A stretch of DNA of 521 bases from Escherichia coli. Its GTDB lineage: Bacteria; Pseudomonadota; Gammaproteobacteria; Enterobacterales; Enterobacteriaceae. The stretch lies in assembly GCF_003334335.1 (NCBI RefSeq), contig NZ_QOWQ01000176.1. One strand, 5' to 3'. The notes below the pieces were generated by a model, which searched no databases, was not told the DNA's origin, and saw nothing but the letters and a program-made list of their open reading frames with translations. The position numbers were made by a program, and so were the translations under genes. Positions 1 through 474 of this stretch are shown here, in pieces (the stretch's first letter is position 1; each line of letters opens with the position of its first letter).

Positions 1-474
1 GCTTCTGCGCCTGAAATCCTCGACCAGTTTCTTGACGAAAAAGAAGGTAACCACACCACGGCATACCGTGATGGTGCGGGGATCTGGACCATCTGCCGTG
101 GTGCCATCATGGTGGATGGCAAACCTGTCGTCCCGGGCATGAAGTTGTCGAAGGAAAAATGCGCTCAGGTTAATGCCATTGAACGTGATAAGGCGCTGGC
201 ATGGGTGGAGAAAAACATCAAATTGCCACTGACTGAACCGCAGAAAGCGGGCATCGCGTCATTCTGTCCGTACAACATCGGGCCTTCGAAATGCTTCACC
301 TCAACGTTTTACCGGAAACTGAACGCCGGAGACCGGAAAGGTGCATGTGCTGAAATCCGCCGATGGATATATGACGGCGGCAGGGACTGTCGGAATCGCT
401 CAAATAACTGTTACGGGCAGGTATCGCGGCGTGACCAGGAGAGCGCGCTGGCGTGCTGGGGAATTGACAGATAA
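1..474 (+). CDS. Phage-type lysozyme / endolysin (glycoside hydrolase family 24, T4-lysozyme-like muramidase); 5'-partial, start codon lies upstream of the window
   Basis: Frame 1 is open from base 1 to the TAA stop at 472-474 (157 codons in window). Translation of 1-108 gives ASAPEILDQFLDEKEGNHTTAYRDGAGIWTICRGAI, which continues directly into the ORF-track protein starting MVDGKPV. The E(43-45)-x8-D(70-72)-x5-T(88-90) spacing matches the catalytic Glu/Asp/Thr arrangement of T4 lysozyme (E11/D20/T26) and lambdoid and P21-type endolysins. The overall resemblance to enterobacterial prophage lysozymes (EG..Y.D..G.WT.C.G, then a C-terminal R-R-W-x-Y-x-G-G motif) is from memory, not from a search. 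There is no Shine-Dalgarno-like sequence ahead of the ATG at 109, consistent with it being internal. Confidence 0.85.
   Translation, partial: ASAPEILDQFLDEKEGNHTTAYRDGAGIWTICRGAIMVDGKPVVPGMKLSKEKCAQVNAIERDKALAWVEKNIKLPLTEPQKAGIASFCPYNIGPSKCFTSTFYRKLNAGDRKGACAEIRRWIYDGGRDCRNRSNNCYGQVSRRDQESALACWGIDR

What the first reader, a model, noticed from the sequence alone, without database searches (positions are those of the whole stretch)
1..108. ORF-track start is an internal Met; the catalytic E-x8-D-x5-T motif lies in the 'upstream' 108 bp
The computed ORF (109-474) omits the in-frame residues that carry the whole GH24 catalytic motif: Glu at 43-45, Asp at 70-72, Thr at 88-90. The gene therefore runs off the 5' edge of the window, and the unseen N-terminus decides the biology. 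A signal-anchor-release (SAR) N-terminus would mean holin-independent or pinholin-dependent export; a soluble N-terminus would mean a canonical holin-dependent endolysin. Annotating this as a 121-aa protein would give a catalytically dead fragment.
Basis: partly seen in the sequence, partly recalled or inferred. Interest (0 to 1): 0.35.

Follow-up and report, generated by a model that had tools for sequence, protein, structure and literature searches.

The report
Truncated prophage SAR endolysin gene
The window holds the last 157 codons of an ordinary, well-known lambdoid-prophage lysozyme gene (R); its real start lies 60 bases upstream of the window and encodes a membrane-tether (SAR-type) N-terminus, and a phage-21-type pinholin gene sits just upstream.

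Summary
Frame 1 is open from base 1 to the stop at 472-474. The ATG at 109 is Met57 of a 177-aa phage lysozyme R. Glu35, Asp44 and Thr50 (E-x8-D-x5-T) lie at 43-45, 70-72 and 88-90, the same residue numbers as in the crystallised phage 21 SAR endolysin.

The window is 100% identical to Escherichia phage PhiR5_2 and to several E. coli prophages. In those records the gene starts at an ATG 60 nt before window base 1. That ATG has a strong Shine-Dalgarno site and lies 4 nt after the stop of a phage-21-type class II holin (pinholin).

The 20 missing residues plus the first four window codons read MSRK-LHYGLSVAVLAMIATGASAP. This is two basic residues followed by a 20-residue charge-free, weakly hydrophobic, half Gly/Ala/Ser/Thr segment with no Cys. 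It is an R21-type SAR domain by sequence.

The 89%-identical 933W R protein is used in the literature as a SAR endolysin, and Stx-phage R genes are already described as pinholin/SAR systems. Met57 is not conserved and has no ribosome-binding site above background.

Verdict: a real feature, a window-edge artefact of ORF calling, already known biology, low interest.

The parts
1..474 (+). 3' part (codons 21-177 plus TAA stop) of the 177-aa endolysin gene R. The true ATG lies 60 nt upstream of window base 1 (L001 2941).
   Evidence: The window is identical to L001 3001-3521 and L002 3001-3521. The gene is annotated 'lysozyme R' / 'lysozyme' WP_001539101.1.
1..12 (+). Codons for A21-S22-A23-P24, the C-terminal end of the N-terminal charge-free, weakly hydrophobic (SAR-type) segment, residues 5-24. 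The rest of that segment lies upstream of the window.
   Evidence: LHYGLSVAVLAMIATGASAP, 20 residues, 10 of them G/A/S/T, no Cys. The ASA-P sequence is conserved in four close homologues.
37..441 (+). Phage_lysozyme (PF00959, GH24-type) catalytic domain, protein residues 33-167.
   Evidence: E about 1e-24, model positions 2-125 of 125. PDB 3HDE/4ZPU/3HDF at E about 1e-18 to 5e-19.
43..45 (+). Catalytic Glu35 (GAA).
   Evidence: Aligned with the Glu of ...LEG... in phage 21 lysozyme. Invariant in alignment A1.
70..72 (+). Asp44 of the E-x8-D-x5-T triad.
88..90 (+). Thr50 of the triad.
109..111 (+). Internal Met57, the start of the mechanical 121-aa ORF and not a translation start.
   Evidence: Not conserved: Arg in 933W, YYZ-2008 and the Klebsiella homologue, Val in HannyBb. 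Its anti-SD duplex energy is -2.8 kcal/mol, against a locus background mean of -2.5 and -8.5 for the true start.
265..294 (+). Cys109...Cys118 (SFCPYNIGPSKC), a cysteine pair specific to this subfamily and absent from the R21-like protein.
   Evidence: A disulfide is inferred only.
388..411 (+). Cys150...Cys157 (DCRNRSNNC), within a 7-residue insertion relative to R21.
   Evidence: A disulfide is inferred only.
475..521 (.). Start of the non-coding spacer after R. No RNA family match was found.
   Evidence: The terminator-like hairpin lies further downstream, outside the window (L001 3565-3597).

Best explanation
The window is the 3' 474 nt of gene R of a lambdoid (933W/Stx-phage-like) E. coli prophage. 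R encodes a 177-aa GH24-type lysozyme with the E35/D44/T50 triad. Its real start is an ATG 60 nt upstream of the window.

The protein carries an N-terminal signal-anchor-release (SAR) domain of the phage 21 R type, with no Cys in the anchor.

Most likely mechanism, inferred from the family:
1. The host Sec system exports the catalytic domain to the periplasm.
2. The weakly hydrophobic N-terminal helix holds the enzyme in the inner membrane in an inactive state.
3. The adjacent S21-type pinholin triggers and depolarises the membrane.
4. The uncleaved helix leaves the bilayer and the enzyme refolds into the active form.
5. The active enzyme degrades the murein, and the downstream Rz/Rz1 spanins then disrupt the outer membrane.

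Shown here: gene structure, start codon, domain, triad, N-terminal composition and neighbouring genes. Inferred: export, tethering, non-cleavage and pinholin-triggered release.

The confidence of 0.86 is for the SAR mechanism. The gene-structure part (true start 60 nt upstream, Met57 internal) I hold at about 0.97.
For: Source and gene structure:
- 100% identity to phage PhiR5_2 and to E. coli prophages, where the feature is a 534-nt 'lysozyme R' CDS starting 60 nt upstream.
- That ATG is the only start codon after the upstream in-frame stop. Its SD duplex energy is -8.5 kcal/mol (only 9% of background positions reach -6 or lower). It lies 4 nt after the holin stop.

Domain and catalytic residues:
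- PF00959 matches at E about 1e-24.
- The triad aligns with R21 (3HDE/3HDF) and RrrD (4ZPU).

N-terminus:
- It has 2 basic residues, then 20 charge-free residues of which 10 are G/A/S/T.
- Its best 19-residue Kyte-Doolittle mean is 1.68. The i-spanin signal anchor of the same cassette scores 2.46 and an R21-like SAR domain scores 2.10.
- This fits the published description of SAR domains (PMC9239132).

Neighbouring genes:
- The upstream gene is 'Bacteriophage P21 holin S' (PF04971, E=5.8e-35) with the M1/M4 dual start.
- Rz and Rz1 lie downstream.

Literature:
- 933W R is 89% identical and was cloned and assayed as a SAR endolysin (PMC9239132).
- Stx-phage R phams are described as predicted R21-like SAR endolysins paired with pinholins (PMC8136144).
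Against: - No experiment exists on this exact protein.
- The published 933W R data seen here are indirect. They consist of sphere formation with and without the Mu releasin, using a construct from a thesis.
- The N-terminus also resembles a Sec signal peptide (n-region MSRK, h-region about 13 residues, c-region ATG/ASA). SAR behaviour versus cleavage cannot be decided from sequence, and T4 RI was misassigned as SAR in this way (PMC8385771).
- The summed Hessa-type insertion energy is unfavourable (+4.0), weaker than the R21-like domain (+1.1). This figure used a scale recalled from memory.
- The AlphaFold model was of low confidence (mean pLDDT 69.9; below 50 over residues 35-49) and adds nothing.
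Confidence: 0.86

Rival explanations
1. The N-terminus is an ordinary cleavable Sec signal peptide. The enzyme is then secreted as a soluble periplasmic lysozyme rather than tethered by a SAR anchor.
For: The architecture is signal-peptide-like: n-region MSRK, h-region LHYGLSVAVLAMI, then small residues A18-T19-G20|A21 and A21-S22-A23|P24, both of which fit the -3/-1 rule (direct reading). T4 RI was shown to have a cleavable signal peptide after being called SAR (PMC8385771).
Against: Pro at +1 of the ASA site blocks signal peptidase I (PMC8385771, citing Barkocy-Gallagher and Bassford 1992 and Karamyshev 1998), and this Pro is conserved in four close homologues. A freely secreted active lysozyme would lyse cells before assembly is complete and would make the adjacent pinholin pointless (inference). 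Only a small fraction of cells expressing 933W R alone became spherical, whereas co-expression with a releasin gave a significantly higher proportion (PMC9239132). That behaviour suggests a tethered enzyme. The A-T-G|A site cannot be excluded without SignalP or an experiment.
Confidence: 0.08
2. R is a cytoplasmic, soluble endolysin released through large holin lesions, as in lambda. The N-terminal hydrophobic stretch would then be irrelevant.
For: None specific. It is the default model for 'R' genes of lambdoid phages.
Against: The protein has a 20-residue charge-free hydrophobic N-terminus preceded by basic residues. The holin is of the P21 S family, whose lesions are about 2 nm (PMC6139136). 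The protein has eight cysteines in 177 residues, including two closely spaced pairs, which fits a periplasmic protein (inference).
Confidence: 0.03
3. The 121-aa ORF (109-474) is a genuine second product made from an internal start, as reported for some Gram-positive endolysins such as CTP1L.
For: An in-frame ATG exists with a marginal GGTG five nucleotides upstream. Secondary translation products of endolysins are known elsewhere (PMC4777826, title seen).
Against: Met57 is replaced by Arg or Val in all four close homologues and in the Klebsiella homologue. The SD duplex energy is at background level, -2.8 against a mean of -2.5. The product would lack both the export signal and the catalytic triad.
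Confidence: 0.02

Closest known systems
Endolysin R of Stx2 phage 933W (NP_049505.1) and its Stx-phage/prophage orthologues
   Same: 177 aa and 89% identical. It has the same N-terminal design (MSRKLRYGLSAAVLALIAAGASAP), the same E35/D44/T50 triad, the same eight cysteines, and a preceding S21-type holin. It is used experimentally as a SAR endolysin (PMC9239132).
   Different: About 11% of residues differ, including R6H in the cytoplasmic/anchor boundary and T56I/R57M, which creates the misleading internal ATG. In 933W an ant gene lies between R and Rz, whereas here there are two small membrane-protein ORFs.
Phage 21 endolysin R21 (PDB 3HDE active, 3HDF inactive form) and DLP12 RrrD (4ZPU)
   Same: GH24 lysozyme fold by sequence (E about 5e-19), identical numbering of E35/D44/T50, an N-terminal Cys-free SAR-type segment, and pairing with an S21-family pinholin.
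   Different: Only about 30% identity to an R21-like protein. This subfamily is 12 residues longer. It has a 7-residue insertion (CRNRSNN) and four extra cysteines (C109, C118, C150, C157). Its anchor is less Gly-rich and less hydrophobic.
Phage P1 Lyz (prototype SAR endolysin with disulfide-isomerisation control)
   Same: Lysozyme with the E-x8-D/C-x5-T type motif and an N-terminal SAR domain (PMC4640515 and PMC9239132; otherwise my own knowledge).
   Different: P1 Lyz control depends on a Cys inside the SAR domain (my own knowledge). Here the first Cys is at residue 52 and the anchor has none.
T4 lysozyme (gpe) / P22 gp19, canonical cytoplasmic GH24 endolysins
   Same: Same Pfam family and catalytic motif (P22 lysozyme 2ANV at E=2.7e-7).
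   Different: Those enzymes have no N-terminal hydrophobic segment and need large-hole holins (established knowledge).

Membership tests
Phage lysozyme, Pfam PF00959 (GH24-type) | Significant full-length match to the family HMM | tested here: met
   E=6.4e-25 for the window translation and 9.6e-25 for the full protein, model positions 2-125 of 125.
Phage lysozyme, Pfam PF00959 (GH24-type) | Catalytic E-x8-D-x5-T triad in register with characterised members | tested here: met
   E35/D44/T50 are aligned with the corresponding residues of 3HDE, 3HDF and 4ZPU and are invariant in alignment A1.
Phage lysozyme, Pfam PF00959 (GH24-type) | Muramidase activity on peptidoglycan | not testable with these tools
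   Needs an enzyme assay.
SAR endolysin (R21 type) | N-terminus with 2-3 basic residues followed by a charge-free TMD of about 20 residues rich in weakly hydrophobic residues (Gly/Ala/Ser/Thr) | tested here: met
   R3 and K4, then residues 5-24 are charge-free with 10 of 20 G/A/S/T. The KD19 score is 1.68 against 2.46 for the Rz signal anchor. The criterion is as worded in PMC9239132.
SAR endolysin (R21 type) | Genetic pairing with a pinholin | tested here: met
   The upstream gene, 4 nt away, is PF04971 'Bacteriophage P21 holin S' (E=5.8e-35), also matching phrog_20/phrog_9876 holin, and RefSeq calls it 'class II holin'.
SAR endolysin (R21 type) | The anchor is not cleaved by signal peptidase, so the full-length protein is released | tested here: inconclusive
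   The conserved Pro24 at +1 argues against cleavage at ASA|P. An A-T-G|A site remains formally possible. No SignalP tool and no experiment were available.
SAR endolysin (R21 type) | Release from the inner membrane and activation by pinholin or depolarisation, called the definitive test in PMC9239132 | not testable with these tools
   Only indirect published evidence exists, for the 89%-identical 933W R.
SAR endolysin, P1 Lyz type (disulfide isomerisation) | Cysteine within the SAR domain | tested here: not met
   The cysteines are at 52, 74, 109, 118, 136, 150, 157 and 172, with none in residues 1-24.
Canonical cytoplasmic endolysin (lambda R / T4 E mode of release) | No N-terminal hydrophobic or export segment, and pairing with a large-hole holin | tested here: not met
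   A hydrophobic N-terminus is present and the holin is of the P21 S family.

The most novel reading that the evidence does not exclude
The 933W-type R subfamily may be regulated differently from R21. Its anchor ends in a conserved signal-peptidase-like ASA|P site with a blocking proline. It also carries two subfamily-specific, closely spaced cysteine pairs (C109/C118 and C150/C157, the latter in a 7-residue insertion). These features could add a Dsb-dependent (disulfide) or LepB-interacting layer of control to membrane release, which would make it a third regulatory variety of SAR endolysin beside P1 Lyz and R21.
Probability: 0.06. Interest if true: 0.35.

Novelty: already known. Interest (0 to 1): 0.07.

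Why it matters
The main value is for annotation hygiene. An ORF caller working on a window that cuts a gene reports the first internal Met and yields a 121-aa fragment without its catalytic residues or its export signal. Here the Met responsible is a lineage-specific Arg-to-Met change.

Biologically the locus is a standard pinholin / SAR-endolysin / spanin lysis cassette. More than 2,400 of 5,426 complete E. coli genomes hold a match. The type has already been described for Stx phages, and it opens no new question.

Tried and rejected
- **Rfam.** An E-value scan of the window on both strands found no match.
- **Promoter and terminator scan around the gene.** It found nothing inside the window. 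The only terminator-like hairpins lie upstream of S and downstream of R, and counts were at shuffle expectation.
- **AlphaFold2 with the 6-sequence alignment.** Mean pLDDT was 69.9, below 50 over residues 35-49 and about 52-58 over residues 141-160. That is too poor to judge Cys-Cys proximity or packing of the N-terminal helix, so I ran no fold search.
- **NCBIfam.** The only hit was a sub-threshold match to a GTA endolysin model, 73.5 bits against a cut-off of 315. It is uninformative beyond 'lysozyme'.
- **Primary papers on R21 structure and reviews.** I tried to read PMC3075974, PMC4012431 and PMC6733033, but none is held. The refolding step of the mechanism therefore rests on secondary descriptions and my own knowledge.
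- **Alternative starts.** I considered Met16, Met57, Val58 and others. All have background-level SD energies.
- **Large database searches.** I did not use the protein-database or metagenome scans, because the annotated phage and E. coli collections already answered the question.

Full report
**1. What is in the window**

The mechanical ORF list gives 109..474 on the + strand, 121 aa. Frame 1 has no stop from base 1 to the TAA at 472-474.

It reads ASAPEILDQFLDEKEGNHTTAYRDGAGIWTICRGAIM....

Pfam PF00959 (Phage_lysozyme) matches window residues 13-147 over model positions 2-125 of 125, at E=6.4e-25. The 121-aa ORF alone reaches only model positions 27-125. The ORF-track product would therefore lack the part of the domain that holds the triad.

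phmmer against PDB sequences aligns the motif residue by residue with phage 21 lysozyme (3HDE, 3HDF) and DLP12 RrrD (4ZPU), at E between about 5e-19 and 1e-18.

An open run of 36 codons alone is unremarkable (P about 0.18). The homology makes the case.

**2. Where the window comes from and where the gene starts**

The 521 bases are 100% identical to three Escherichia phages (PhiR5_2, PhiR12_3, PhiR12_4) and to prophages in ten complete E. coli chromosomes. A further 2,041 E. coli records match at 80-90% identity. In all, 2,488 of 5,426 complete genomes hold a match.

In PhiR5_2 (L001) and E. coli G1/2 (L002) the feature is a 534-nt CDS, annotated 'lysozyme R' or 'lysozyme' (WP_001539101.1). 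It starts 60 nt before window base 1.

That ATG is the only ATG, GTG or TTG after the in-frame TGA 21 codons upstream. It is preceded by GGGGAGAG, with an anti-SD duplex energy of -8.5 kcal/mol. Only 9% of background positions in the locus reach -6 or lower. It lies 4 nt after the stop of the preceding holin gene.

The ATG at window 109 is Met57. Its upstream region pairs with the anti-SD at -2.8 kcal/mol, against a locus mean of -2.5.

The residue is Arg in 933W, YYZ-2008 and a Klebsiella homologue, and Val in HannyBb. The misleading start codon is thus a lineage-specific substitution, not a conserved initiation site.

**3. The unseen N-terminus**

The full protein begins MSRKLHYGLSVAVLAMIATGASAPEILDQF.... 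It has two basic residues (R3, K4), then a 20-residue charge-free stretch (residues 5-24). Ten of those 20 are Gly, Ala, Ser or Thr, and none is Cys.

| Segment | Best 19-residue Kyte-Doolittle mean |
|---|---|
| This protein's N-terminus | 1.68 |
| Signal anchor of the i-spanin Rz, same cassette | 2.46 |
| 43-aa downstream ORF | 2.89 |
| SAR domain of an R21-like protein | 2.10 |

This fits the published description of SAR domains: 2-3 basic residues, then a TMD of mainly weakly hydrophobic residues. [quoted passage not shown]

The last four residues of this segment (ASAP) are the first four codons of the window.

**4. Context**

- **Upstream gene.** It is a 71-aa protein matching Pfam PF04971 'Bacteriophage P21 holin S' at E=5.8e-35 and the PHROG holin families. 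RefSeq calls it a class II holin. It has Met at positions 1 and 4, and the two records annotate different ones. From my own knowledge this is the phage 21 S71/S68 dual-start arrangement.
- **Downstream genes.** After about 155 nt of spacer with a terminator-like hairpin come two small membrane-protein ORFs of unknown function (phrog_1115 and phrog_4906). Rz follows, with Rz1 embedded in it.
- **Overall.** The cassette is pinholin / R / (two small ORFs) / spanins, followed by terminase genes.

**5. Mechanism**

Published descriptions of the phage 21 paradigm are in PMC6139136 and PMC9239132. According to them:
1. The enzyme is exported by Sec.
2. It accumulates inactive, tethered to the inner membrane by the SAR helix.
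3. It is released when the pinholin depolarises the membrane.
4. It then refolds to the active form.

I infer the same for this protein. Three observations support that inference:
- The architecture matches point by point.
- The 89%-identical 933W R was cloned and assayed as a SAR endolysin. Alone it converted only a small fraction of cells to spheres. With the Mu releasin the proportion was significantly higher.
- A survey of Stx phages describes their R phams as predicted R21-like SAR endolysins paired with pinholins (PMC8136144).

The anchor has no Cys. The P1 Lyz style of control, which needs a cysteine in the SAR domain (my own knowledge), therefore does not apply.

**6. Rival explanations**

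The serious rival is a cleavable Sec signal peptide. The N-terminus has an n/h/c layout and two small-residue motifs, A-T-G|A and A-S-A|P. T4 RI shows that SAR assignments can be wrong (PMC8385771).

Three points argue against it:
- Pro at +1 blocks signal peptidase I (same paper, citing Barkocy-Gallagher and Bassford 1992), and this Pro is conserved.
- A freely secreted active lysozyme would make the pinholin pointless.
- The 933W R phenotype looks like that of a tethered enzyme.

I could not run SignalP, so the A-T-G|A site remains formally open. I give this rival about 0.08.

A cytoplasmic endolysin (0.03) and a genuine internal-start product (0.02) are poorly supported.

**7. Comparison with known proteins and novelty**

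The protein is a member of PF00959/GH24 by HMM match and by motif. By sequence and context it is an R21-type SAR endolysin.

The functional hallmarks are no cleavage and release on depolarisation. Neither can be tested with these tools.

It is essentially the R protein of 933W-like Stx phages and related E. coli prophages, which is already annotated and already discussed in the literature.

The finding is correct and useful for annotation, because it avoids calling a 121-aa fragment that lacks the catalytic triad. It is not new biology.

**8. Loose ends**

Relative to R21 this subfamily has a 7-residue insertion and four extra cysteines in two close pairs, C109/C118 and C150/C157. They are conserved down to the 52%-identical Klebsiella homologue.

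They may form periplasmic disulfides. The AlphaFold model was too weak to test this.

Noticed in passing
L001 3631-3813 and 3828-3959 (about 110-440 nt downstream of the window end): Two small ORFs (60 aa and 43 aa), each with a hydrophobic segment, sit between R and Rz. Phage 933W and YYZ-2008 have an antirepressor (ant) gene at this position. They match only PHROGs of unknown function (phrog_1115, phrog_4906) and have no NCBIfam hit. Their place inside a lysis cassette makes a lysis-accessory role conceivable (antiholin, releasin-like or moron).
   Followed up: partly
L001 3565-3597 (outside the window, 44 nt beyond its 3' end): A 14-pair terminator-like hairpin followed by a T-rich tail lies between R and the two small ORFs, inside what should be the late operon. 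It was found by a consensus scan only, and counts were at shuffle expectation.
   Followed up: no
L001 2721-2936 / L002 2721-2936: The two records annotate different starts for the holin: Met4 (68 aa) in PV340546 and Met1 (71 aa) in RefSeq. The sequence MYQMEK... has the same Met1/Met4 layout as the phage 21 S dual-start (antiholin/holin) motif, so both products may be made.
   Followed up: partly
window 265-294 and 388-411: This R subfamily has four cysteines that the R21-like protein lacks, in two closely spaced pairs: C109/C118, and C150/C157 inside a 7-residue insertion. All eight cysteines are conserved in the 933W, YYZ-2008 and HannyBb proteins, and the four extra ones also in the 52%-identical Klebsiella phage HF1013 protein. 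Possible periplasmic disulfides, untested.
   Followed up: partly
L004 1193-1504 (HannyBb) and L007 1106-1450 (YYZ-2008): In these relatives an extra ORF of about 100-115 aa of unknown function lies between the holin and R. In the window's phage and in 933W, S and R are only 4 nt apart. In HannyBb the R gene itself is annotated only as 'hypothetical protein'.
   Followed up: no
window residues 35-49 of the full protein (window 43-87): The AlphaFold2 model had pLDDT below 50 exactly over the catalytic Glu35-Asp44 loop. This may only reflect the 6-sequence alignment. It is also the region that differs between the inactive and active R21 crystal forms (my own knowledge).
   Followed up: no
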